A stretch of 64,000 nt of DNA from an uncultured Bacteriovoracaceae bacterium. Its GTDB lineage: Bacteria > Bdellovibrionota > UBA2394. Within the stretch, counting starts at the first letter, position 1; each line of letters begins with the position of its first letter. The stretch is from the NCBI GenBank assembly GCA_964598565.1, contig CAZRCG010000006.1, positions 37,624 through 101,623 of the forward strand. Direction: 5' to 3'. Positions 4,340 through 51,747 of the stretch are shown piece after piece. The position numbers were made by a program, and so were the translations under genes. The notes beneath the pieces were generated by a model. It searched no databases, had not been told where the DNA came from, and saw only the letters and a list, made by a program, of their open reading frames with translations.

Positions 4340-5881
4340 GTGACAGAAAAACCGTTGACACCCCTTTCAGCGTCATGGCCTGAGCTGGCTGCAAACTACG
4401 ATGTCGTCGTCATTGGAGCGGGACTCGCAGGGTCGGAGGCTGCGCTTCGCATTGCGGCAGAAGGTCGTCGCGTTTTATTGCTCGAGCAGAAACCTCAACG
4501 CTTTTCACCTGCCCACCGATTACCGGGAGCTGCAGAGTTAGTTTGCAGCAACAGCTTTAAATCGCTCGAGACGCGCTCAGCACATGGTCTGATGAAAGAA
4601 GAACTCAGGCGACTAGGCTCGCCCTTACTCAAATTGGCTCTTCAGTCTCGAGTTCCAGGCGGAAAAGCCTTGGCCGTGCATCGAGAGGCCTTTAGTGAGG
4701 CTGCTGAACATGCGATTTCTTCTCATTCGTTCATCACAAAGATGGGGCTAGAGGTGAAAGAGATTCCTCGTGTGCCAATTCCTGTCATTATTGCCAGCGG
4801 CCCTCTCACGTCGGATGCTCTGGCACAAGATCTCTGCCGACATCTGGGGGATGAATCACTTTATTTTTACGATGCCACCGCCCCGGTTGTGAGCTTGGAT
4901 TCTCTCGATCTTGATTTCTTCTTTTGGGGGAATCGCCATCAGGACGGACAAGACTATCTAAACTTGCCGTTAACGCAAAGTGAGTATCATTATTTTCGAG
5001 AGCAACTTTTGAAAGCAGAGAAAATGGAATCGCATATGACGGACGAACTTCGATTTTTCGAAGGCTGCCTGCCCGTCGAAGAACTCGCCTCACGCGGCGA
5101 AGAAACCTTGGCCTACAGCTGCATGCGTCCCGTGGGTCTTTCGATGAGCGAATGGCCATCCCCTCGGCGCGAGGCCTTTGCCCCTCGTTACCAGGCCCAT
5201 GCCGTGATTCAATTTCGTCGCGAACGAGCCAGTGGGGAGCTTCTCAATATGGTGGGCTTTCAAACCCGCATGAAGTGGCCCGAGCAGCAGCGCGTATTTC
5301 GAGAACTTCCGGGTATGGGCTCGGCGGATTTTGTTCGCCTTGGAGCGATGCATCGCAATACGTTTGTCAATACACCGAAGCATTGCCGCGATCATCTCGA
5401 ACTTAAAAATCTCGAAAGCTCGACGCTTGGCCCCGTATTTGTTGCCGGGCAAATTTCTGGGTCTGAAGGTTATACGGAGGCGATTGCCTCGGGCCATTAT
5501 GTCGCCCTTCGCGTGCTGGGGTATCCTTGTCTGCCTGAAACCTCGTGTTTAAGGTCGATGGTGCGCTTTCTTATAGAATCAGATTCTCGGTATTTTCAGC
5601 CCATGAATTTTAATTTTGGTCTCTTACCTTCGTCTCCCCCTGAAAGCCACGCTAACGCTACAATAAAAGAAGGGTCGCCTGCTGGCCGACCCCCGAAGAG
5701 GCGAAAACTCTCTAAAGCAGAGCGCATTGCCGAACGCGTGGAGTGCAGCCTGGGAGACTTAGATACGTGGATTTTAAGTCATTTCAAAGAGCCATTGAAA
5801 ACTACCTTAACGACGCAGTGGCCTTCGAACGATTTAGCCCCCATAGTCACCGAGCACGATGCACAGATCTTAAGCGCTTAG
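4340..5881 (+). CDS. trmFO: Methylenetetrahydrofolate--tRNA-(uracil-5-)-methyltransferase TrmFO (Gid), with extended C-terminal tail
   Basis: FAD-binding N-terminus YDVVVIGAGLAGSEAA, conserved FQPMNFNFGLLP near C-terminus; GTG start; 3' end overlaps the xerC reading frame. Confidence 0.9.
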   Translation: MTEKPLTPLSASWPELAANYDVVVIGAGLAGSEAALRIAAEGRRVLLLEQKPQRFSPAHRLPGAAELVCSNSFKSLETRSAHGLMKEELRRLGSPLLKLALQSRVPGGKALAVHREAFSEAAEHAISSHSFITKMGLEVKEIPRVPIPVIIASGPLTSDALAQDLCRHLGDESLYFYDATAPVVSLDSLDLDFFFWGNRHQDGQDYLNLPLTQSEYHYFREQLLKAEKMESHMTDELRFFEGCLPVEELASRGEETLAYSCMRPVGLSMSEWPSPRREAFAPRYQAHAVIQFRRERASGELLNMVGFQTRMKWPEQQRVFRELPGMGSADFVRLGAMHRNTFVNTPKHCRDHLELKNLESSTLGPVFVAGQISGSEGYTEAIASGHYVALRVLGYPCLPETSCLRSMVRFLIESDSRYFQPMNFNFGLLPSSPPESHANATIKEGSPAGRPPKRRKLSKAERIAERVECSLGDLDTWILSHFKEPLKTTLTTQWPSNDLAPIVTEHDAQILSA

Positions 5882-8041: not shown

Positions 8042-9646
8042 GTGTCAGAGATCGTTTTGGGTATTGATTTAGGAACGACCTATTCTTGTGTGGCGATAGC
8101 CGACAAAGATGGGCCCAGAGTTATTGAGCAACATGGAGGCTATCGCACCTTTCCTTCCGTCGTGGCCTTCACGGCCAATGGGTCTAAACTCATTGGTCAT
8201 ATTGCCAAGCGCCAATCGATTACGAATGCTGAAAATACGGTCTACTCCGCGAAGCGGCTAATCGGGCGAGGCTTCGAGGCTCCCGAGGTGCAAAAGGCAA
8301 TAAAATCGGTGCCCTATAAAATTGTTCAAGGCCCCAATAGAGATCCGAGAATATCTATTTTTGGCCGCAATCATCCAATCTCTGAAATTTCGGCGCTCAT
8401 TTTAAAGCAAATTAAAGAGATCGCCGAGGAGAGTCTTCACACCAAAATAGATAAGGCCGTGATTACCGTGCCAGCCTATTTTTCAGATGGTCAGAGGCAG
8501 GCAACCAAAGACGCAGGTTTCATTGCCGGCCTCGAGGTGCTGCGTATTATCAATGAACCTACGGCGGCGGCTCTTGCCTTCGGATACAAGCGTCGTATGG
8601 ACAAAAAGATTGTGGTTTACGATTTGGGTGGGGGTACGTTTGATGTTTCAATACTCGATATTTCTCGCGATACCTTCGAAGTATTGGCGACCGCAGGAAA
8701 TACCTTTCTGGGTGGAGAAGACTTTGATCAACGACTTATCGATTTTATTTCGAAATCGTTTGAAGCAGACCATGGCATTTCACTGAAAGATGATCGAATG
8801 GCCCTTCAGCGTCTGAAAGATGCTGCTGAAACCGCTAAGAGCCAGCTGTCGACTCTGCTTGAGACCGAAGTGAACTTACCCTTTCTCATTACCATCAACG
8901 GTGAGGCGAAACATTTGAAGATGACGCTTCATCGACTTGATCTTGAGCGAATCACTCAAGACTTGGTCGATGAAACTATCCGCATTTGTCGGGACGCCCT
9001 CGATATGGCAGCTCTCAAAGTGGGAGAAATCGATGATGTTTTGTTGGTGGGGGGTATGACTCGCATGCCGTTGGTTCAGCAAAAGGTGCGGGAATTCTTT
9101 GAACGCGTTCCATCGAAAAATATTCATCCGGATGAGGCTGTAGCTCTTGGGGCCGCCATTATGGGCGCCACTCTTCTAGAAGAAGAAATGCCTGTGACTC
9201 TTCTCGATGTGACTCCCTTCAGTTTGGGTATTCGAACAGCCGGTGGTTATACCAACTTTCTGATACCCAAAAATTCGACCATTCCGACCGAAGCCAGTCA
9301 TGTCTTTACGACGGTGAGCGAGGGGCAGACATCGGTGAAAATTCAGGTCCTGCAGGGTGAAAGCAAAGTCGCCATCGACAATATTTTACTGGGAGAATTC
9401 ACGCTCACTGATATTCCTCCCCTAAAAGCGGGAGAGCCTGAAATTAATGTGATTTTTAGCATCGATTCAAATGGTATTGTTCATGCGTCAGCGCAAGATA
9501 TGAAAACCATGAAAGAGCAATCGATTATGGTCACCTCAAAGTCGAGCTTAACCGAAGAAGAGCGAGATGAAATTGCCGAACGCTTTAACAGCGATAACGA
9601 TATGGGCGTCACTGAGAAAGTGGGACGACCTGAAGGCTCACAATGA
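8042..9646 (+). CDS. Hsp70-family chaperone, short-lid HscC-like type
   Basis: IDLGTTYS, DLGGGTFDVSIL, VGGMTRMPLVQQKV motifs; 534 aa, i.e. nucleotide-binding domain plus beta substrate-binding domain but truncated helical lid; GTG start. Confidence 0.85.
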   Translation: MSEIVLGIDLGTTYSCVAIADKDGPRVIEQHGGYRTFPSVVAFTANGSKLIGHIAKRQSITNAENTVYSAKRLIGRGFEAPEVQKAIKSVPYKIVQGPNRDPRISIFGRNHPISEISALILKQIKEIAEESLHTKIDKAVITVPAYFSDGQRQATKDAGFIAGLEVLRIINEPTAAALAFGYKRRMDKKIVVYDLGGGTFDVSILDISRDTFEVLATAGNTFLGGEDFDQRLIDFISKSFEADHGISLKDDRMALQRLKDAAETAKSQLSTLLETEVNLPFLITINGEAKHLKMTLHRLDLERITQDLVDETIRICRDALDMAALKVGEIDDVLLVGGMTRMPLVQQKVREFFERVPSKNIHPDEAVALGAAIMGATLLEEEMPVTLLDVTPFSLGIRTAGGYTNFLIPKNSTIPTEASHVFTTVSEGQTSVKIQVLQGESKVAIDNILLGEFTLTDIPPLKAGEPEINVIFSIDSNGIVHASAQDMKTMKEQSIMVTSKSSLTEEERDEIAERFNSDNDMGVTEKVGRPEGSQ

Positions 9647-10440
9647 CGAAGCCCCCGATGAGAGATGGTATTGAGCCCAAGATTTTAATTTCAAAACAAG
9701 AGTGGATGGTGGTCGCCAAGCCGGCAGGTTACCATACGCTTTCGGCCAAGGCATCTTCGGAGCCAGTGAAAGACCCTCACGGCTTATTTCATGATGATGA
9801 AATAAGCGGCGTCTATGACATAAGCCCTAAAGGGCCTCTTGTGATGGATGATTCAGATGATATTTCTGAGGGGCAAAGCTTGGAAGCTTGGTTGTTAGAG
9901 CAGTATCCCGAGCAGAAGTCGATTCCTGACTCGGGCATTGCGCATCGTCTCGATCAGAGGACCTCGGGATGCCTGTTAGTTGCAAGAACCGAAAGCTCCT
10001 ATATGCATCTGAGAGATGATATTCGTTCAGGAGCTATACGAAAAATATATTTGACCTATGTGAAGGGCCTTTGCCGATCGGGAGATTTCACGCTCTATTT
10101 TTCGAGTCGATATAAGCGGTCTCAAAAAGTAACCGTAGCTGAAACAGGTCCGGAAAAAGTTCGAGGTCGCTGTCAGTGGACTATGCTCAAAACCGATCGA
10201 GATCGCAGCCTCCTCGAAGTGGAACTTCTCGGCCGTGGCAAGCGACACCAAATACGCGCCGGCTTTGCGCATCTCGGTCATCCCCTTGTGGGCGATCGAC
10301 TCTACGGAGGTCCCGCTTGGAATTCGCGCTTTGGTCTGCATGCTTGGAAATTACTATGGAAGAAACATGAGGTCATTTGCCCCCCGCCCGATGACTGGCC
10401 AGAGGATTTTAAGAAGATAGGCGAGGAGGGAGAAGCCTAA
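9643..10440 (+). CDS. RluA-family pseudouridine synthase
   Basis: Catalytic HRLDQRTSGCLLVART motif and GRGKRHQIR motif; start ATG overlaps the Hsp70 stop (ATGA). Confidence 0.8.
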   Translation: MTKPPMRDGIEPKILISKQEWMVVAKPAGYHTLSAKASSEPVKDPHGLFHDDEISGVYDISPKGPLVMDDSDDISEGQSLEAWLLEQYPEQKSIPDSGIAHRLDQRTSGCLLVARTESSYMHLRDDIRSGAIRKIYLTYVKGLCRSGDFTLYFSSRYKRSQKVTVAETGPEKVRGRCQWTMLKTDRDRSLLEVELLGRGKRHQIRAGFAHLGHPLVGDRLYGGPAWNSRFGLHAWKLLWKKHEVICPPPDDWPEDFKKIGEEGEA

Positions 10441-41078: not shown

Positions 41079-42863
41079 CTATGAACGACTCTGCAGAGCA
41101 AGAACCAAACGGTGAAAGCCTCCTGGTGAATCCAACGCCGTCTTACCCACCGCCTTAAAAGCATTGTCCGCCCGCTCTTTATAAGTCGCCTCATGCGTGA
41201 GCGCCGCCAATTTATACAGAGCTTCGATCGCTACGGCATAGGCCGACGGCAGAGCCCCATCGCGCACCGTCTTATATCGCACCAAAAGATCCGAGACACT
41301 CTCAGCCGTAAACCAGAAGCCACCCTGCGTTTCATCTGAAAAGGTTTTGATTAGACGGTCCACCGTCACACGGGCCCGATCAAGCCAGAGCTGAGACGCC
41401 TCGCCTTTCATTGATTGAGCGAGATCTAAAAATCCCAAAGCTCCGTAGGCCGAATCTTCTAAGAAAGAGAACGCCTGACGCGAATCTGCCAGATGCCAAA
41501 GCCCCCCTTTGTCCGTATTATGAAGAGTCCAAAGTCGGTTGGCAGCCCTTTCTGCCATCGCTCGCCAATCTTCGATGCCAACGACAGTCGAAGCCCTTGC
41601 GAGTGCCGAGATCATAAGCCCGTTCCACGATGCTTGAATTTTTGTGTCGGTCAGTGGTCGAGTCCGCTGCATTCGTGCGCGCTTCAAAGACTCGAGAGCG
41701 CCTAAAAGCGATTCTTCTTCGGCGAGAGAGAGTGCTTCTTTAGTCACCAAAACTCGCCGACCTTCTAAAACGGCCCCCTCGTCATCGAAACGAAATAAGC
41801 GAGCCAGCTCTTGTTGCTGCTCAATACTATGTCCGCCGGCTCCGAGGACCTGCGCCCATTCATCCAGACTCCACGTATAAAAGAGGCCTTCTTCATGGTC
41901 GCTGTCGGCATCGATGGCCGAGAAAAAACCTCCGTCGCTGGCCGTCATCTCACGACGAATCCACTCAACCGTTTTCTTTAGGACTCGTTCCACTCGCGCA
42001 CAGGTTCTGAGCTCCAGGAGTTCGGCTCCCCAGAGCAGCATCAAGGCATTGTCATAGAGCATCTTCTCAAAATGCGGCACCTTCCAAGCGCGATCGGTTG
42101 AGTAACGATGAAATCCCCCTTCAAGTTGATCAAAAATACCGCCCGCCGCCATTTTTAGATAACTGCGATAGCTAAGGTCGAACGACTCTTCATGACCTTT
42201 GAATCGCCGAGATTCACGAATCAATAGTCGAAAGGCATCGACATGAAAAAACTTAGGGGCCGTGCCTAAGCCCCCTTCTTCAGCGTCGATCTGCGCTTTG
42301 ATATTGAGAAGCACTTTATTTTCGAGTTGATCATCTATCTCGTCGACGCGATCAAAGAACTGGGATTCCTGCGCCAATAAATGTGCCACTTGAAGAGCGT
42401 TCTTGGCCACAAGGTCTCGTTGTTCTTGAAACGTGGCCGCTACCCGCAGCAAAACATCTCGAAAAGGTGGGCGCCCATAGCGAGCATCAGGAGCAAAGTA
42501 GGTTCCCCCAAAGAACGGTTTGAGGTCGGGGGTCAAAAATATTGTTAAGGGCCAGCCTCCCTGTCCTGTCATCATTTGCAAGGCGGACATATAGACATGA
42601 TCTAAATCGGGGCGCTCCTCTCGGTCGAGCTTGATCGAAATGAAGTGGTCTTTGAGGATTTTGGCCACCCGCTCGTCGCAAAAGCTTTCACGCTCCATGA
42701 CATGACACCAATGACAGGTCGAATAGCCGATACTTAAGAAAATGGGTTTGTTTTCAGAACGCGCTCTTTCAAGTGGCTCGGGGCCCCAGGCATACCAATC
42801 GACAGGATTGTCTTTGTGCTGCAACAAATAGGGGGAACTTTCGTTGGCAAGACGATTTTGCAT
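41079..42863 (-). CDS. Thioredoxin-domain protein of the YyaL/DUF255 family
   Basis: N-terminal [39 protein letters not shown] (thioredoxin-like with CxxC) followed by six-hairpin glycosidase-like region. Confidence 0.85.
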
Positions 42864-42980
42864 GGAATCTACCCTAATGGGCCAGCAAGTTGTGGGTCGA
42901 TGCCTAAATCAGCGGAATTTATCTTTCGGGGCTTTTCTTCTTGAAATGCTTGGAAGTTCTTCTTAACGTGAAGGGGCTCC

Positions 42981-44480
42981 ATGGGGTTAATAAGCCTGCT
43001 AAAGCTATTTAAAGGAAAGAAAAAGGAGTCGAAGACCAGAATGAAGAGCGCCCGAGCCTTAAAGCAGAAATCACGTTCACTTAAAAACCCTGCCACCAAG
43101 GCCGCCAAAAAGCCCCCGAAGGCTGTCTCTTCAAAATCATCGTCTAAATCTTCCAAGACCGCCGCCATAAAAAGCACGGTCCCAAAGTCGGTCAAAGAAG
43201 CAGCGTCAAAAGTGGTGTTAACGAGCAAAGCTGGAAAGGCCCTCGCTTCAAAAAGTTTAAAGAAAATGGAAAGTCCCACGATAGAAAGAAAGCCTCTGAC
43301 TGCCAAAAAAGGGGACGCCAAAAAGGTAGACCTTTCTAAAAAAGGAGACGCCAAAAAAATCGACGCAAAGTCGTTGAGCCAGCCTTTTGAGCCATTTATG
43401 GCACAGTGGAAGCCCAAGGCCGAGTCGTTTGACGTCGCGCTCGACCGATTTTTTGATACGGCGGGCATTGAAGCCGCTGACAGTCGCGAAGCCACGCTCG
43501 AGAAACTCCTGTCGGCGATGCGTAAGCAGGAACTACCCGCTCTAGCCGAAGAATTGCTTTTGGAGCGCTATCAGCGTGACCGCGTGCATAAACTATTCTC
43601 TATTCTGTCGATGCGCCCCAAGACGACGGTGCGCCTCAATTTCTTGCGGGCCGATTTGGTAGGATTCTCTGAGAGTCAGGTCGCTAAGGACCTCAAGATC
43701 AAACGTTCGTCGCTTAGTCCTTGGTCTTTTGATGTGGCGAAACCCGAACTACTGTCATCCCATCCATCGTACGGGAAGGGTCTCTATGAGATTCATGAAG
43801 AAAGCTCGCAGCTCATCGCCCTTTTGTCGAACGCGCGTCCGGGTCAACGTATTTTAGCACTCAATGCAGGATCGGGTGAGGCGGCTCTCACTATGGCCAC
43901 CATGATGAAAAATACGGGCTCTCTCTTTGTCTACGAAAGTGACCCAAAAAATATTCGGCGGTTTAAAGAAATGGCCGAGCGCGCTCCTATCGATAACTTC
44001 AGACTATTGTCCGATAACCAGATCGGCGAAGTAAAGAGTCTTGATACCTGTGTCATTCAGGCTCCCTCCACGGGTTTGGGACTCTTAGCCCATCATCCTG
44101 AGTTAAAGTGGAAGCTGAGCAAAGAAGAATCATCTCGTCTTCAAAAACTGCAAGCCGCTCTCTTGAGAGAAGCCGGTCGAAAGTTGAAATTGGGTGGCTA
44201 TATCATTTATGCCAGTCATACCCTGGATAAGAGTGAGAATGAAAACCAGATCGACCATTTTATTCGGGGATCTCATTCGTCGTTTCGTTTAGTATCGATG
44301 TCGACGCACTTAAAGGATTTTGTCATACCCTACATGACCAATCACTTTCAATTTTCATGGGACGATAAAACCTATTTGTCTCTGATTGAGAATGATCCGT
44401 TCTTGCTATTATCTCCGGATGTCCAAGGAACGGCGGGACTCTTTGTGAGCGTACTTCAGCGAATTCGCATCAGTTCGTAA
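42981..44480 (+). CDS. RsmB/NOP2/Sun-fold protein with substituted catalytic cysteines and Lys-rich N-terminal tail (predicted non-canonical or inactive RNA m5C methyltransferase homolog)
   Basis: Clear motif IV and VI homology (CVIQAPSTGLGLLAHHPELKW; LKLGGYIIYASHTL) but PC is PS and TC is SH; motif I is ILALNAGSGEAAL rather than DxCAAPGGKT; first ~120 aa are K/A/S-rich. Confidence 0.7.
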   Translation: MGLISLLKLFKGKKKESKTRMKSARALKQKSRSLKNPATKAAKKPPKAVSSKSSSKSSKTAAIKSTVPKSVKEAASKVVLTSKAGKALASKSLKKMESPTIERKPLTAKKGDAKKVDLSKKGDAKKIDAKSLSQPFEPFMAQWKPKAESFDVALDRFFDTAGIEAADSREATLEKLLSAMRKQELPALAEELLLERYQRDRVHKLFSILSMRPKTTVRLNFLRADLVGFSESQVAKDLKIKRSSLSPWSFDVAKPELLSSHPSYGKGLYEIHEESSQLIALLSNARPGQRILALNAGSGEAALTMATMMKNTGSLFVYESDPKNIRRFKEMAERAPIDNFRLLSDNQIGEVKSLDTCVIQAPSTGLGLLAHHPELKWKLSKEESSRLQKLQAALLREAGRKLKLGGYIIYASHTLDKSENENQIDHFIRGSHSSFRLVSMSTHLKDFVIPYMTNHFQFSWDDKTYLSLIENDPFLLLSPDVQGTAGLFVSVLQRIRISS

Positions 44481-44610
44481 GCGAAGTGTCAGACCACGAG
44501 AATAAGCCCCCGTTAATGGGGCCTTAACCCTCTAAAATAATGAGATTTTTCCTCATTGCCGAAGATTTAGACGATGTTTTATGACGCGCTGCCGATAGAT
44601 CTTAAGATCT

Positions 44611-45672
44611 ATGCGACTCTCTAAGAACAACTACGATAGCTTGGCAGGACTATTATCGGTTCGATCGTCTTCTCAATCGTATGCCGGCATCGCTCGAGGT
44701 TCAGATAGGCGCTCCATTGAAGGTCAAAGAAACCAAGCAAGGATCGAGACGCCGAAAAGCCCTATAGAGCTGCTTCCTTCACACGAAAGTCCCACTCAAA
44801 TTGAGCGCCTGAAGACCCTGGGCTCAGGCTCACTGGTCGATAGCCAGCGCCGTCATGAATTTCGGGGACCAGCCATTTCGTACGAGATAGACACGTCACT
44901 CTATAAAAACTATCTCGACCGGGTTCAGGGGCGGGCGTCGCAAGAAGTCGGGCTTGTTCAACCTGAATTTTTAGGACTCGATAGAGAGCTCGAAGAGGCC
45001 CCTCTTTCGAATACTGATATCTCGCTTACTCAGGATGATCTTCATTTTCTTCGCGGCGCAATCGAATCGGCACTTTCAAGAGCGCTGCGAGATAATCGAG
45101 AATCTACCGAAGACGATATTAATTCGTTTGTAGATGAATCATTTGGATCTGGAACGTCCGAGATACTCGCTGCATCGCGAGTCGATGTGGGCGATGGCCA
45201 CTCGGAAATGCGAATAAGTCAAATCGCCATCGAAGACTTATCTCAAGATGACAAAGAGACCCTTGCCCTGGCGTTCACCAATGCCAAAATGTTTTTCGTT
45301 CAGACCCAAGAACCTCGCCCAATCATCCACAATCTTGAAGTAGCTTCTAAGATGAAGTCGCTAGAGAACCTCTTAGGCCCTGTCTATCACTCCGAGATGA
45401 ATAAGCTAGCCCAGGGCCTTTCAGGATCTGGCGATGGTGGCCCGAGTGAGGCCCTGGCACGGCTGCGCCAAACTATAGAAGACGATACGACTTTAAGCTT
45501 CTCTGTACAGAATCAGGCTCTCGAGCGAATCGATGAACTGTCTGAATTTGCGGAATCTCTGAAGAATACCGTAAGCTCTCCACCCCTATTTGAAGACCTC
45601 GTTATAAGCTTCAAAAGCGGCTCTTATCGACGGGCCTTCACGCCCGATGAGATTCTCTCCGTTTTGGAGTGA
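44611..45672 (+). CDS. Hypothetical protein (acidic, no recognised domain)
   Basis: 353-aa ORF between convergent/divergent neighbours; no motif matches. Confidence 0.4.
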   Translation: MRLSKNNYDSLAGLLSVRSSSQSYAGIARGSDRRSIEGQRNQARIETPKSPIELLPSHESPTQIERLKTLGSGSLVDSQRRHEFRGPAISYEIDTSLYKNYLDRVQGRASQEVGLVQPEFLGLDRELEEAPLSNTDISLTQDDLHFLRGAIESALSRALRDNRESTEDDINSFVDESFGSGTSEILAASRVDVGDGHSEMRISQIAIEDLSQDDKETLALAFTNAKMFFVQTQEPRPIIHNLEVASKMKSLENLLGPVYHSEMNKLAQGLSGSGDGGPSEALARLRQTIEDDTTLSFSVQNQALERIDELSEFAESLKNTVSSPPLFEDLVISFKSGSYRRAFTPDEILSVLE

Positions 45673-45779
45673 GATTTTTGATTGGCAGATAAGGATATAA
45701 ATCGGATCACGGTATCATTTGGCGCACGATTTTCGTTTTCTAATATTCAAGAATTCCGCTTGGGTCTATAAGTTGCTTT

Positions 45780-46367
45780 ATGGCGGTAAACATGATTTCT
45801 CCTCTCACCCAAATCGAAAACTGGATCCAAGAAGCCGAGAAGGCGGGCGAAATCGAAGCTACGGCCGCAGCCCTTGCAACTACAAAAGCCAACCATCAGC
45901 CGAGTGTTCGATTCGTACTGACCAAGGGCTTTCACGAGGGCCGTCTGGCCTTTGTGACAAACTATGAAAGTCCTAAAGCTCACGATTTGAACTCTATTCC
46001 GTACGCCGAACTTTGTTTTTATTGGAAGACACTCTTTAAGCAGGCCCGTATTGCAGGGCGCGTAGAAAGAGCGCCGGCCAACTTCTCAGATACCTACTGG
46101 AGAAGTCGGCCTCGTGAGAGTCAGCTCGGGGCTTGGGCATCCAATCAAAGCGCCCCCATTGAATCGTATGAATCCTTAGAGTCAAAACTCTCTGAGATTT
46201 CTCAAAAATATATAGATCTTGAAGTCCCTCGCCCTCCTCACTGGGGCGCTTACTTTTTGATTCCCGAGCGTGTGGAGCTTTGGTTGGGGCAGAAATTTCG
46301 CATTCACCAACGCTATTTATTTACGCGAGAAGGTGATTATTGGAAGAAAGAGATTCTAGCACCTTAG
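45780..46367 (+). CDS. pdxH: Pyridoxamine 5'-phosphate oxidase
   Basis: Conserved C-terminus HWGAYFLIPERVELWLGQKFRIHQRYLF and FMN-binding fold pattern. Confidence 0.85.
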   Translation: MAVNMISPLTQIENWIQEAEKAGEIEATAAALATTKANHQPSVRFVLTKGFHEGRLAFVTNYESPKAHDLNSIPYAELCFYWKTLFKQARIAGRVERAPANFSDTYWRSRPRESQLGAWASNQSAPIESYESLESKLSEISQKYIDLEVPRPPHWGAYFLIPERVELWLGQKFRIHQRYLFTREGDYWKKEILAP

Positions 46368-50613: not shown

Positions 50614-51747
50614 ATGGTGCATCAACAGGGCGATATTTTGGAAGTGACGATTGAAGGACTGGGATCTTTTGGTGAGGGCCTCGGGCGCGTCCAAAACACC
50701 GAGATTTTTGTTCCCAAAACGGCTCGTGGCGACAAGATCGAATGTCAGTTATTAGAACAGAAAAAAGGGCGATGGCGTGCTCGCCTCGTCAGACTGATTG
50801 AACCTGGGCCTTCGCGTGTACAGGCTCCCTGCAAACACTTTGATGCATGCGGAGGCTGTGATTTTCAGCATCTCGCGAACGACGAACAGCGCGCCTGGAA
50901 AATGCGCATCATCAAACATTGGATTCGACGTTCTCCCCTAGCCCCTCAGCTCGAATCGATAATATTCGATCAAATTACGTCACCTCACGCCTACCACTAT
51001 CGACATCGAGTGCGATTGCAAGTTCAAGACCATAAGCTCCATTTTTTTAAACCCCACTCTCATGACCTACTGCACCTTGAAGAATGCCCTATCTTGGTAG
51101 ACGGTTTCTTTGACGCTTTGAGTGATCGTGCCCGGTCTTTAGGCGATACCAAGAATTGGAATCAAAGCTATTCCAATCATGCCTTGGTCGACGACGCTGG
51201 ATATTATGAAATCGATGGATGCATGATTCGCTTTGGCCCTGATTGCTTCACTCAAGCCAATGAAAGTGTCAATCAACTCATGTGGCAGCGAATCAAGGAA
51301 GATGCTGTAGGCCAGCATTTCAGACGGCACGCGCTTGATTTATTCTGTGGCGTCGGAAATTTTTCACTGCCTCTGAAGACGATGTTTGAAAAGGTAACAG
51401 GCATTGAGAATTATGCCCCCGCGATTGAATGGGCTAAGAAAAATTCATCGGACATTGAATGGAAATGTATGGATTCTCATGACGGCGTCTTAGAGTTCAT
51501 TCGCGATAGAAGAGCCGTCGATTTTGTATTGCTCGATCCGCCCCGTCTGGGGGCCCTTCGTGAAATACAGGCCCTCAGTCAACTTATGCCGCCGATCATC
51601 GTTTACGTCTCGTGCCATCCTGAAACTTTGGTACGAGACCTTATCCAACTGCGTAAAAAATCGCCTTATAAAATCAAACGTTGGACAGTCGTTGATCTAT
51701 TTCCCCAGACGCATCATATCGAAAGCATTGTCACGCTCACTCTTTGA
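50614..51747 (+). CDS. 23S rRNA (uracil-C5)-methyltransferase, RlmD/RumA family (TRAM plus class I MTase)
   Basis: N-terminal TRAM, four Cys CKHFDACGGCDFQH, SAM motif LDLFCGVGNFSLPL, catalytic-Cys region VYVSCHPETL. Confidence 0.85.
   Translation: MVHQQGDILEVTIEGLGSFGEGLGRVQNTEIFVPKTARGDKIECQLLEQKKGRWRARLVRLIEPGPSRVQAPCKHFDACGGCDFQHLANDEQRAWKMRIIKHWIRRSPLAPQLESIIFDQITSPHAYHYRHRVRLQVQDHKLHFFKPHSHDLLHLEECPILVDGFFDALSDRARSLGDTKNWNQSYSNHALVDDAGYYEIDGCMIRFGPDCFTQANESVNQLMWQRIKEDAVGQHFRRHALDLFCGVGNFSLPLKTMFEKVTGIENYAPAIEWAKKNSSDIEWKCMDSHDGVLEFIRDRRAVDFVLLDPPRLGALREIQALSQLMPPIIVYVSCHPETLVRDLIQLRKKSPYKIKRWTVVDLFPQTHHIESIVTLTL

What the first reader, a model, noticed from the sequence alone, without database searches (positions are those of the whole stretch)
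42981..44480. RsmB/NOP2/Sun-fold protein with both catalytic cysteines replaced and a histone-H1-like lysine-rich tail
The C-terminal 380 aa align motif-by-motif with RNA m5C methyltransferases, but the motif IV Pro-Cys is Pro-Ser (QAPSTG) and the motif VI Thr-Cys nucleophile is Ser-His (YASHTL). The glycine-rich SAM loop is also altered. Both cysteines are required for m5C catalysis in this family (established knowledge). The N-terminal ~120 residues are a K/A/S-rich low-complexity tail typical of nucleic-acid-binding domains. This looks like a repurposed, probably non-methylating RNA- or DNA-binding protein.
Basis: partly seen in the sequence, partly recalled or inferred. Interest (0 to 1): 0.6.

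Follow-up and report, generated by a model that had tools for sequence, protein, structure and literature searches.

The report
Dead RsmB-like methyltransferase with lysine tail
This gene encodes a well-conserved protein with the fold of an RNA cytosine-5 methyltransferase that has lost every residue needed for that chemistry and carries a long lysine-rich disordered tail, so it is most likely a non-catalytic RNA-binding protein specific to a group of uncultured predatory bacteria.

Summary
ORF 42981-44480 (+) has an RsmB/NOP2/NSUN fold (PF01189 1e-19; Foldseek probability 1.0 to 2yxl, Nop2 and E. coli Fmu). In the window protein all four active-site residues that are strictly conserved in RNA m5C methyltransferases are replaced: motif I Lys→Ala, motif IV Asp→Gln, motif IV Cys→Ser, motif VI Cys→His.

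This is neither an error nor decay. An independent assembly encodes the identical protein. About 35 syntenic orthologs in uncultured Bacteriovoracaceae/Bdellovibrionota MAGs all lack the motif VI Cys. No Cys is conserved anywhere in the family, and four members have none. The folded domain is more conserved (median 54% identity) than the flanking gpsA and DUF255 genes.

Among 1.84 billion representative proteins the family is sharply bounded (≥477 bits against ≤203 bits for canonical enzymes, which all keep both Cys). Every full-length member carries a 57-109 aa disordered tail (net +16 to +50) and none has a NusB domain.

The true start is probably M21 (43041). "H1-like" describes composition only.

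Best reading: a lineage-specific pseudo-methyltransferase that binds RNA, probably in ribosome biogenesis. That function is inferred. Whether a canonical rsmB coexists in these genomes could not be determined.

The parts
42941..42969 (+). Promoter-like element, TTGAAA-N17-TAACGT
   Evidence: The same TTGAnn-N17/18-TAAC[GT]T lies upstream of the ortholog in L001, L002, L003, L008, L009 and L011. One-mismatch versions are visible in L004, L007, L010 and L012. There are only 3 such motifs in the whole window (shuffle mean 1.5). Its function is inferred; the consensus scan did not list it.
42981..43040 (+). First 20 codons of the listed ORF, probably not translated (over-extension)
   Evidence: No ortholog has an equivalent. 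They all start at the position of window M21. The -10-like hexamer ends only 11 nt before ATG 42981. M1 is not strictly excluded.
43023..43028 (+). Shine-Dalgarno-like AAGGAG, 12 nt upstream of ATG 43041
   Evidence: Read directly from the sequence.
43041..44480 (+). Most likely CDS: 479-aa Cys-less RsmB/NOP2-like protein (includes the stop codon)
43041..43355 (+). Lysine-rich intrinsically disordered N-terminal tail (residues 21-125 in 499-aa numbering)
   Evidence: pLDDT is 37-47 across residues 1-120. The tail has 29 K + 3 R against 7 D/E. All 33 full-length orthologs have a tail of 57-109 aa, 29-51% basic, without sequence conservation.
43302..43358 (+). 15-nt tandem repeat (3.6 copies) encoding A-K-K-G-D units inside the tail
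   Evidence: Tandem Repeats Finder. It explains why the window's tail is the longest in the family.
43362..43610 (+). Family-specific helical N-terminal subdomain (residues ~128-210), with a conserved NP..F...WKPK.ESF block
   Evidence: Helices 129-209 are modelled at pLDDT above 90. W123 in 479-aa numbering is invariant and P115, K126, E128 and F130 are nearly invariant. There is no PF01029 NusB hit in 0/34 members.
43617..43790 (+). RRM/ferredoxin-like domain preceding the catalytic core (residues ~213-270)
   Evidence: A beta/alpha pattern at residues 215-271 is modelled with high confidence. PF17125 is hit by 21/34 members and PF22458 by 8/34. The NSun6 paper proposes this element as a common RNA-binding module of the family.
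43791..44477 (+). Rossmann-type methyltransferase-like core (residues ~271-499)
   Evidence: PF01189 1e-19, residues 284-443. Foldseek matches to 2yxl, Nop2, Fmu and RsmF at probability 1.0.
43854..43892 (+). Degenerate motif I, LALNAGSGEAALT (canonical LD.CAAPGGKT)
   Evidence: At the G247 equivalent, 0/35 family members have Gly (window Glu300). At the K248 equivalent, 3/35 have Lys (window Ala301). All 9 outgroups have Lys and 8 of 9 have Gly.
44052..44081 (+). Degenerate motif IV, VIQAPSTGLG (canonical LvDAPCSG)
   Evidence: Asp→Gln360 and Cys→Ser363. Across the family the Asp position reads D20/E9/H3/Q2/N1 and the Cys position reads C10/S25. Ala-Pro is invariant.
44202..44225 (+). Degenerate motif VI, IIYASHTL (canonical lvYsTCSl)
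   Evidence: The nucleophile Cys is His413 in the window. 0/34 family members have Cys here (S16, T7, N4, Y4, H1, F1, Q1), while all 9 outgroups have Cys.
44460..44477 (+). Family-specific basic C-terminal motif, R-[TI]-R-I-S-[STN] (window RIRISS)
   Evidence: R474, R476, I477 and S478 (479-aa numbering) are invariant in 34 sequences. The motif is absent from canonical outgroups. Its function is unknown.

Best explanation
The gene encodes a lineage-specific pseudo-methyltransferase.

Shown:
- It descends from an RsmB/NOP2-type RNA m5C methyltransferase. Its nearest canonical relatives are NusB-less PF22458+PF01189 enzymes.
- It keeps the RRM-like and Rossmann scaffold under purifying selection.
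- It cannot carry out m5C chemistry, because the nucleophile Cys was lost at the base of the family. The remaining catalytic and SAM-methionine-side residues were then lost step by step: motif I Gly-Lys, then the motif IV Cys several times independently, then the motif IV Asp in the window's lineage.
- Every member carries a polycationic disordered N-terminal tail and lacks a NusB-like RNA-binding domain.

Inferred:
- The protein acts by binding RNA rather than modifying it. The retained RRM-like domain and the former substrate cleft (invariant Ala-Pro of motif IV, and the invariant Phe that stacks on the target base in NSun6) would provide specific recognition. The tail would provide high-affinity, non-specific electrostatic binding or chaperone activity.
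- The most likely client is ribosomal RNA during subunit assembly. This would parallel the catalysis-independent assembly roles known for Nop2 (my own knowledge) and shown for RlmB and RlmKL.
For: Fold and descent:
- PF01189 1e-19.
- RsmB equivalog models match at 139 bits against a cutoff of 319.
- PDB sequence hits to 2yxl, RsmF, Nop2 and Fmu.
- AF2 model with pLDDT above 90 for residues 128-499, and Foldseek probability 1.0 to the same structures.

Loss of catalysis:
- Site table: motif VI Cys 0/34, motif IV Cys 10/35, motif IV Asp 20/35 (window Gln), motif I Lys 3/35 (window Ala).
- No Cys is conserved in the family, four members have zero Cys, and the window has one non-conserved Cys in strand beta4.
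- NSun6 mutagenesis: K248A is inactive, D323A does not bind SAM, and both Cys are essential. NSUN7 Asp→Leu and NSUN6 Asp→Asn abolish SAM binding.

Real and selected:
- An identical protein occurs in an independent assembly.
- 12 syntenic orthologous loci.
- Folded domain median 54% identity, against gpsA 47, DUF255 47 and the 632-aa gene 42.
- 56 invariant columns across 34 sequences.
- The tree shows one basal loss of the motif VI Cys and at least 4 independent motif IV Cys→Ser losses.

Family boundary: 477-677 bits for members against at most 203 bits for all others among 1.84e9 representatives. All non-members that cover the motifs keep GGK, PC and TC.

Tail: conserved in composition but not in sequence, and disordered.

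Retained RNA-side features: RRM-like domain, invariant AP of motif IV and the F458-equivalent Phe.

Precedent: catalytically inactive RlmB and RlmL stimulate ribosome assembly.
Against: - No direct evidence of RNA binding or ribosome association. The gene is not in a ribosome or translation operon; its neighbours are unrelated housekeeping genes.
- The adenosine-side SAM contacts are retained: the motif II acid in 35/35 and the motif III Asp in 34/35. Subclade A keeps the motif IV Asp and a conserved CAREGDHT loop. Some ligand binding, at least in that subclade, is therefore not excluded.
- A K/A-rich tail could equally well bind DNA.
- Whether a canonical RsmB coexists in these genomes is unknown.
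Confidence: 0.6

Rival explanations
1. It is a nucleoid-associated, DNA-binding protein. The lysine/alanine-rich tail would act like the H1-like tails of bacterial proteins such as Chlamydia Hc1/Hc2 or Pseudomonas AlgP, compacting or organising DNA. The dead methyltransferase domain would serve as a dimerisation or recognition module.
For: The tail composition is 29-51% basic, rich in A, S and P, with net charge +16 to +50, and it is conserved as a feature. It is disordered. The literature on bacterial H1-like tails concerns DNA or polyphosphate binders (list; knowledge of Hc1/AlgP is my own).
Against: No member hits any linker-histone or Hc-type Pfam family. The folded part derives from an RNA-specific enzyme family and keeps its RRM-like RNA-binding module. 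Polycationic tails are equally typical of RNA-binding and ribosome-associated proteins (my own knowledge).
Confidence: 0.15
2. It still binds SAM or an adenosine-containing ligand. It would then either be an enzyme with different, cysteine-independent chemistry or a ligand-sensing RNA-binding protein.
For: The motif II acid (D28/E7 of 35), the motif III Asp (34/35), the first motif I Gly (35/35) and Ala-Pro of motif IV (35/35) are retained. Subclade A keeps the motif IV Asp and a strictly conserved, remodelled loop CAREGDHT, which suggests constraint on the pocket.
Against: - In the window protein the motif IV Asp is Gln. Even Asp→Asn abolishes SAM binding in NSUN6, and Asp→Leu does so in NSUN7.
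- The second motif I Gly, whose backbone contacts the SAM carboxylate, is an acidic residue in 27/35 members. The motif I Lys is lost in 32/35. The K271-equivalent ribose contact is Asn in the window.
- Pocket residues are variable within the window's subclade (Q, E, H, N, D at motif IV; a variable motif I loop), which is the pattern of relaxed rather than retargeted constraint.
Confidence: 0.12
3. It is an artefact or a decaying pseudogene: a sequencing or assembly error, or an rsmB gene drifting toward loss.
For: None beyond the loss of the catalytic residues themselves.
Against: An identical protein is found in an independent assembly, and the key substitutions need two base changes each. 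The intact ORF is conserved and syntenic in 12 species-level genomes. The folded domain is more conserved than its housekeeping neighbours, with 56 invariant columns and a confident fold prediction.
Confidence: 0.01

Closest known systems
Bacterial and archaeal RsmB/Fmu-type 16S rRNA m5C967 methyltransferases (PF01189; e.g. E. coli Fmu 1sqf/1sqg, P. horikoshii PH0851 2yxl), in particular the NusB-less PF22458+PF01189 'RsmB/NOP family' enzymes of Myxococcota, 'Deltaproteobacteria' and Planctomycetota MAGs
   Same: Same fold, and the same order of RRM-like domain plus Rossmann core. They are the closest sequence relatives, at 203 bits to the family profile and about 27-36% identity. The motif II acid, Ala-Pro of motif IV and the C-terminal G.F motif are conserved.
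   Different: All four strictly conserved active-site residues are replaced in the window protein, and the nucleophile Cys is absent family-wide. It scores far below every NCBIfam RsmB/RsmF equivalog cutoff. It has no NusB domain. It carries a polycationic disordered tail, a family-specific helical subdomain and a C-terminal RTRIS motif.
Vertebrate NSUN7, a catalytically inactive NSUN-family protein (PMC12804707)
   Same: Both are members of the same superfamily that are conserved yet non-methylating. In both, the motif IV Asp that binds SAM is replaced: Leu in NSUN7, Gln in the window protein.
   Different: NSUN7 keeps both catalytic cysteines and is inactive only because it cannot bind SAM. 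Here the cysteines themselves are gone, and the motif I Gly-Lys as well. The two are not orthologous: this family is bacterial and nests next to RsmB-type enzymes. NSUN7 has no lysine-rich tail that I know of (my own knowledge).
rRNA modification enzymes with catalysis-independent assembly roles (E. coli RlmB and RlmKL, PMC11194073; yeast Nop2 and Pet56p)
   Same: They provide the functional model. A protein with an rRNA methyltransferase fold can promote ribosome assembly through binding alone. Nop2 in pre-60S particles is among the best structural matches.
   Different: Those proteins remain active enzymes in nature, and the non-catalytic role was shown with engineered mutants. Here the inactive state is the natural, conserved one. 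Ribosome association is not shown for this family.
Bacterial proteins with histone-H1-like lysine-rich regions (Chlamydia Hc1/Hc2, Pseudomonas AlgP, Streptomyces DdbA)
   Same: A K/A/P/S-rich, highly basic, low-complexity segment with short tandem repeats.
   Different: There is no detectable homology to those families. In this family the segment is an N-terminal appendage on an RNA-enzyme-derived fold.

Membership tests
RsmB/NOP2/NSUN superfamily (PF01189 fold) | PF01189 domain above the Pfam gathering score, and a Rossmann core preceded by an RRM-like domain | tested here: met
   71.4 bits against a cutoff of 27. 34/34 family members hit PF01189. Foldseek probability 1.0 to 2yxl, Nop2, Fmu and RsmF.
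Active RNA m5C methyltransferase (RsmB/RsmF/NSUN1-6 type) | Motif VI Thr-Cys nucleophile | tested here: not met
   His413 in the window and 0/34 Cys in the family, while all 9 outgroups and about 146 nearest representatives have Cys.
Active RNA m5C methyltransferase (RsmB/RsmF/NSUN1-6 type) | Motif IV Pro-Cys general base | tested here: not met
   Ser363 in the window. The family reads C10/S25, with at least 4 independent losses on the tree.
Active RNA m5C methyltransferase (RsmB/RsmF/NSUN1-6 type) | Motif IV Asp (contacts the SAM amino group and cytosine N3/N4) | tested here: not met
   Gln360 in the window. The family reads D20/E9/H3/Q2/N1. The requirement is documented.
Active RNA m5C methyltransferase (RsmB/RsmF/NSUN1-6 type) | Motif I Pro-Gly-Gly-Lys loop (SAM carboxylate and cytosine O2) | tested here: not met
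   Ser-Gly-Glu-Ala in the window. Lys is kept in 3/35 members and the second Gly in 0/35. K248A is inactive in NSun6.
Active RNA m5C methyltransferase (RsmB/RsmF/NSUN1-6 type) | SAM binding and methyl transfer | not testable with these tools
   This needs ITC and activity assays.
RsmB proper (16S rRNA m5C967 methyltransferase; NCBIfam equivalogs) | Score above the equivalog cutoff | tested here: not met
   The best score is 139.3 bits against a cutoff of 319 (NF011494). All 9 RsmB, RsmF and tRNA-m5C models fall far below their cutoffs.
RsmB proper (16S rRNA m5C967 methyltransferase) | N-terminal NusB-like RNA-binding domain (PF01029) | tested here: not met
   0/34 members hit PF01029 at E≤0.1. 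The N-terminus is a disordered Lys-rich tail.
NSUN7-type pseudo-methyltransferase | Orthology to NSUN7, with both Cys retained but the motif IV Asp lost | tested here: not met
   Both Cys are lost here. The nearest relatives are bacterial RsmB-type enzymes, not NSUN7. The resemblance is functional (a natural inactive member) and is not shared descent.
Histone-H1-like / Hc-type nucleoid proteins | Homology to linker-histone or Hc1/Hc2 families | tested here: not met
   No such Pfam family is hit by the window protein at E≤1 or by any of the 34 members at E≤0.1.
Histone-H1-like / Hc-type nucleoid proteins | Lys/Ala-rich, strongly basic, low-complexity composition | tested here: met
   29-51% K+R and net +16 to +50 across 33 tails. 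15-nt tandem repeat.
Histone-H1-like / Hc-type nucleoid proteins | DNA binding and compaction | not testable with these tools
   Requires EMSA or localisation experiments.

The most novel reading that the evidence does not exclude
This is the first natural pseudo-methyltransferase of the RsmB/NOP2/NSUN family described in bacteria. It would be an rRNA-methyltransferase scaffold turned into a dedicated RNA-binding assembly factor or chaperone, or a 'reader' of an unmodified site, by complete loss of the active site and gain of a polycationic disordered tail. It may have replaced the canonical RsmB in a clade of uncultured predatory Bacteriovoracaceae.
Probability: 0.4. Interest if true: 0.6.

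Novelty: new variant of a known kind. Interest (0 to 1): 0.45.

Why it matters
rRNA methyltransferases are widely suspected of having a second, binding-only role in ribosome assembly. In bacteria this has been shown only with engineered dead mutants. A naturally dead RsmB-type protein that is strongly conserved would be a clean natural experiment, showing that the scaffold alone is worth keeping. Its stepwise loss of catalytic residues across a small clade also records how an enzyme becomes a pseudoenzyme.

In practical terms, databases currently label these proteins "16S rRNA (cytosine967-C5)-methyltransferase" or "RsmB/NOP family class I SAM-dependent RNA methyltransferase". For this family that label is almost certainly wrong.

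Tried and rejected
- **A canonical rsmB in the same genome.** tblastn with 7 canonical RsmB proteins found only the gene itself in the window and in each of L001-L012. The window has no def/fmt locus. This remains unresolved.
- **Taxonomy of the nearest canonical relatives.** The listing of cluster members gave no organism names. The look-up of encoding contigs on P0051 and P0040 gave only metagenome record names. A homolog search with P0051 returned 'Deltaproteobacteria', Myxococcota, Planctomycetota and Rhodothermus labels but no Bacteriovoracaceae. The paralog-or-ortholog question stays open.
- **afdb50 fold search.** The library was not available.
- **Rfam scan of 42500-46000 at E≤1.** No matches, so there is no riboswitch or leader element.
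- **Consensus promoter and terminator scan.** Nothing useful at the gene's 5' end. The conserved upstream motif emerged only from comparing loci.
- **A relocated catalytic cysteine.** Rejected, because no Cys column is conserved. The 'YCTSS' Cys two residues upstream occurs in only two members.
- **Sequencing error or pseudogene.** Rejected.
- **Operon partner.** The downstream 353-aa ORF is present in only 3 of 12 related loci, so it is not an obligate partner.
- **Literature.** Searches found no description of a bacterial Cys-less RsmB family.
Full report
**1. What is there**

The ORF listing gives a 499-aa ORF at 42981..44480 on the + strand. It is transcribed divergently from a DUF255/thioredoxin-like gene (41079..42863, -). 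It is followed by a 353-aa ORF with no Pfam match, then pdxH and a convergent fabI-like gene.

The window as a whole is ordinary bacterial chromosome at about 48% GC. It carries topA, dnaK, efp, gatAB, type II secretion genes, hemACD, relA/spoT and several normal RNA-modification genes.

The closest related loci all come from uncultured Bacteriovoracaceae/Bdellovibrionota MAGs, so the window most likely comes from such an organism. That is an inference.

**2.

- Pfam assigns residues 284-443 to PF01189, the RsmB/F methyltransferase domain (1e-19, 71 bits against a cutoff of 27).
- NCBIfam RsmB, RsmF and tRNA-m5C equivalog models all match, but far below their cutoffs. The best is 139 bits against 319.
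- phmmer against PDB sequences finds P. horikoshii PH0851 (2yxl, 3.8e-25), then 1ixk, T. thermophilus RsmF, Nop2, YebU and E. coli Fmu.
- In these alignments DAPCTSSG pairs with QAPSTGLG, YTTCSI with YASHTL, and AAPGGKT with AGSGEAA. MAFFT with nine canonical outgroups and a family HMM aligned to 149 representatives give the same register.
- An AlphaFold2 model is confident for residues 128-499 (block pLDDT 92-98) and disordered for residues 1 to ~120 (block pLDDT 37-47).
- Foldseek matches the model to 2yxl, yeast, human and Chaetomium Nop2 in pre-60S particles, E. coli Fmu, RsmF, YebU, NSun6 and NSUN4 at probability 1.0.

**3.

The NSun6 structural paper states that Lys248 (motif I), Asp323 and Cys326 (motif IV) and Cys373 (motif VI) are strictly conserved across RNA m5C methyltransferases. 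It reports that K248A is inactive, that D323A cannot bind SAM, and that both Cys are essential. The NSUN7 paper shows that replacing only the motif IV Asp (Leu in NSUN7, Asn in a disease allele of NSUN6) abolishes SAM binding.

The window protein has Ala301, Gln360, Ser363 and His413 at these four positions. It also has Glu300 in place of the second motif I Gly, and Asn324 at the Lys271-equivalent ribose contact.

The codons are GCG, CAG, TCC and CAT, mostly two substitutions away from the canonical ones. P0001, from an independent assembly, is identical over residues 96-499. Sequencing error is excluded.

**4. It is a conserved family**

A word-indexed search of 5.8 billion proteins returned about 35 relatives at 43-65% identity. 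Where a source named them, the name was Bacteriovoracaceae or 'Deltaproteobacteria' MAGs. After these there is a jump to canonical RsmB-like proteins at about 20-30% identity.

An exhaustive HMM search of 1.84 billion 50%-identity representatives shows the same discontinuity. Family members score 477-677 bits, plus an N-terminal fragment at 215 bits. Everything else scores at most 203 bits. Every non-member that covers the motifs has GGK, PC and TC.

A scan of one genome per GTDB species found the gene in 12 species-level MAGs and no cultured isolate. That scan is pattern-based, so divergent members could have been missed.

Gene order around the gene is conserved in all of these loci: 632-aa gene, DUF2062 and DUF255 upstream on the other strand, then fabI-like, a cNMP-binding protein and gpsA downstream. 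These are vertically inherited orthologs.

Identity of the folded domain to the window has a median of 54%. That is higher than gpsA (47%), DUF255 (47%) and the 632-aa gene (42%), and lower than fabI (66%). Across 34 sequences, 56 alignment columns are invariant. The protein is therefore under purifying selection.

**5. The pattern of active-site decay**

- 0/34 members have the motif VI Cys (S16, T7, N4, Y4, H1, F1, Q1).
- 10/35 retain the motif IV Cys and the rest have Ser.
- The motif IV Asp position reads D20/E9/H3/Q2/N1.
- The motif I Lys survives in 3/35, and the preceding Gly in 0/35, where it is mostly Asp or Glu.

A neighbour-joining tree rooted on canonical enzymes places the family on a long stem. 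It shows one basal loss of the nucleophile, at least four independent Cys→Ser changes at motif IV, and loss of the motif IV Asp only in derived lineages of the window's subclade. The other subclade has a fixed, remodelled motif I (CAREGDHT).

No cysteine column is conserved anywhere in the family. P0002, P0004, P0008 and P0009 contain no cysteine at all. The window's only Cys (C357, strand beta4) is not conserved. Any thiol-dependent mechanism is therefore excluded for the family.

Some features are retained:
- the first motif I Gly (35/35)
- the motif II acid (35/35 D or E)
- a motif III Asp (34/35)
- Ala-Pro of motif IV (35/35)
- the C-terminal Phe that stacks on the target cytosine in NSun6 (34/34)

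The fold and the base/adenosine-side architecture thus persist, while the catalytic and methionine-side residues do not.

**6. Architecture outside the core**

None of 34 members hits the NusB domain (PF01029) that characterises RsmB proper. 21/34 hit PF17125 and 8/34 hit PF22458, the RRM/ferredoxin-like domain next to the core. The NSun6 authors propose that domain as a common RNA-binding element.

The nearest canonical relatives are themselves NusB-less PF22458+PF01189 proteins of about 420 aa, from 'Deltaproteobacteria', Myxococcota and Planctomycetota MAGs.

All 33 full-length members carry an N-terminal tail of 57-109 residues that is 29-51% Lys+Arg with net charge +16 to +50. The tail's sequence does not align between members. 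The window's tail is the longest and contains a 15-nt tandem repeat encoding AKKGD units. No other ORF in the 64-kb window has a comparable segment.

No linker-histone or Hc-type family is detected, so 'H1-like' is a description of composition.

Family-specific conserved elements are a helical block around an invariant Trp (NP..F...WKPK.ESF) and a C-terminal R-T-R-I-S-[ST] motif. Their roles are unknown.

**7. Gene boundaries and expression signals**

All orthologs begin MKSAR.../MKQAR.../MAKKK.... L001 begins MKSARALKAKS, nearly identical to the window sequence from Met21. An AAGGAG lies 12 nt upstream of that ATG at 43041.

A TTGAnn-N17-TAAC[GT]T element lies upstream of the gene in the window (42941-42969) and in six other loci. 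One-mismatch versions are visible in four more. Its -10-like hexamer ends 11 nt before ATG 42981 and 71 nt before ATG 43041.

I therefore take 43041 as the likely start (479 aa), without excluding 42981.

The 208-aa antisense ORF at 42869..43495 is a mirror artefact of the Lys-codon-rich region. No Rfam family matches the region.

**8. Mechanism**

Shown:
- The protein cannot be an m5C methyltransferase.
- It is a folded, selected, lineage-specific derivative of one.
- A polycationic disordered tail is part of its conserved design.

Inferred: it works by binding nucleic acid. RNA, and specifically rRNA or pre-ribosomal particles, is the most economical guess for three reasons. Its ancestors are rRNA enzymes. 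The RRM-like module and the former substrate cleft are retained. And binding-only roles in assembly are documented for rRNA methyltransferases: catalytically dead RlmB and RlmL stimulate 50S assembly, and Nop2, a top structural match, is a structural component of pre-60S particles.

I put about 0.85 on 'non-catalytic pseudoenzyme' and about 0.55-0.6 on the full statement that includes RNA or ribosome binding.

Rivals:
- a DNA/nucleoid role driven by the tail (0.15)
- residual SAM or adenosine-ligand binding, or a different chemistry, more plausible for subclade A than for the window protein (0.12)
- artefact or pseudogene (0.01)

**9. Comparison with what is known, and novelty**

The protein belongs to the PF01189 superfamily by fold and descent. 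It fails every tested defining feature of an active RNA m5C methyltransferase and of RsmB proper, so it should not be filed as RsmB.

The nearest conceptual precedent is vertebrate NSUN7. NSUN7 keeps both cysteines and is unrelated in origin.

My literature searches found no description of a bacterial Cys-less RsmB-type family. The library searched is incomplete, so this is absence of evidence only.

I rate it a new variant of a known kind: a natural pseudoenzyme within a well-known family, with an added disordered polycationic tail. Pseudoenzymes are common, and this family is small and confined to uncultured organisms, so the interest is moderate.

**10. What remains open**

- Whether these genomes also encode a canonical RsmB.
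- What the protein binds.
- Whether subclade A still binds a ligand.
- The roles of the conserved Trp block and the C-terminal RTRIS motif.

Noticed in passing
window 42941-42969 (+), and upstream of the orthologs in L001-L004 and L007-L012: A conserved TTGAnn-N17/18-TAAC[GT]T element precedes the gene in the window and 6 loci exactly, and in 4 more with one mismatch in the second hexamer. The distance to the start codon varies from 10 to 119 nt. It is likely a promoter with an unusual -10 (TAACGT). The L002 spacing (10 nt) would imply a nearly leaderless mRNA.
   Followed up: partly
window 44611-45672 (+): A 353-aa acidic ORF with no Pfam match lies 130 nt downstream on the same strand. Weak homologs (26-30% identity) occupy the same position only in L008, L009 and L011. 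In most other loci the fabI-like gene follows directly. It is a fast-evolving, optional neighbour of unknown function.
   Followed up: partly
window 42869-43495 (-): A 208-aa antisense ORF overlaps the lysine-rich coding region. Its Phe/Leu-rich translation is the mirror image of AAG/AAA-rich codons. It is almost certainly not a gene.
   Followed up: no
window 43302-43358 (+): A 15-nt tandem repeat (3.6 copies, consensus GCCAAAAAAGGAGAC) encodes AKKGD units inside the tail. It suggests that the tail changes length by repeat expansion. The window's tail (109 aa after M21) is the longest of the 33 compared.
   Followed up: partly
family alignment A2 (window residues 494-499 and 135-150 in 499-aa numbering): Two family-specific invariant elements have no counterpart in canonical RsmB. 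One is a C-terminal R-T-R-I-S-[ST] motif. The other is an N-terminal block, NP..F...WKPK.ESF, with an invariant Trp. Both are unexplained.
   Followed up: no
P0020-P0035 (subclade A of the family): Motif I is remodelled to a strictly conserved CAREGDHT (canonical CAAPGGKT), and the motif IV Asp is kept. This suggests the former SAM pocket is under a new constraint in this subclade, in contrast to the variable pocket in the window's subclade.
   Followed up: partly
database annotations of P0005, P0008, P0010, P0013, P0017, P0019, P0024, P0047: Family members are labelled '16S rRNA (cytosine967-C5)-methyltransferase' or 'RsmB/NOP family class I SAM-dependent RNA methyltransferase' by JGI and NCBI, although they lack the catalytic nucleophile. 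These are probably systematic misannotations.
   Followed up: yes
window 50614-51747 (+), 9643-10440 (+), 4340-5881 (+): The window also encodes apparently ordinary RNA-modification enzymes: a TRAM + m5U methyltransferase (PF05958), an RluA-type pseudouridine synthase and a GidA/TrmFO-like protein. I did not examine their active sites.
   Followed up: no
L012 (REDG01000051.1): This MAG is labelled 'Bradymonadales' but shares the full gene order of the Bacteriovoracaceae loci around the gene. It may be taxonomically mislabelled.
   Followed up: no
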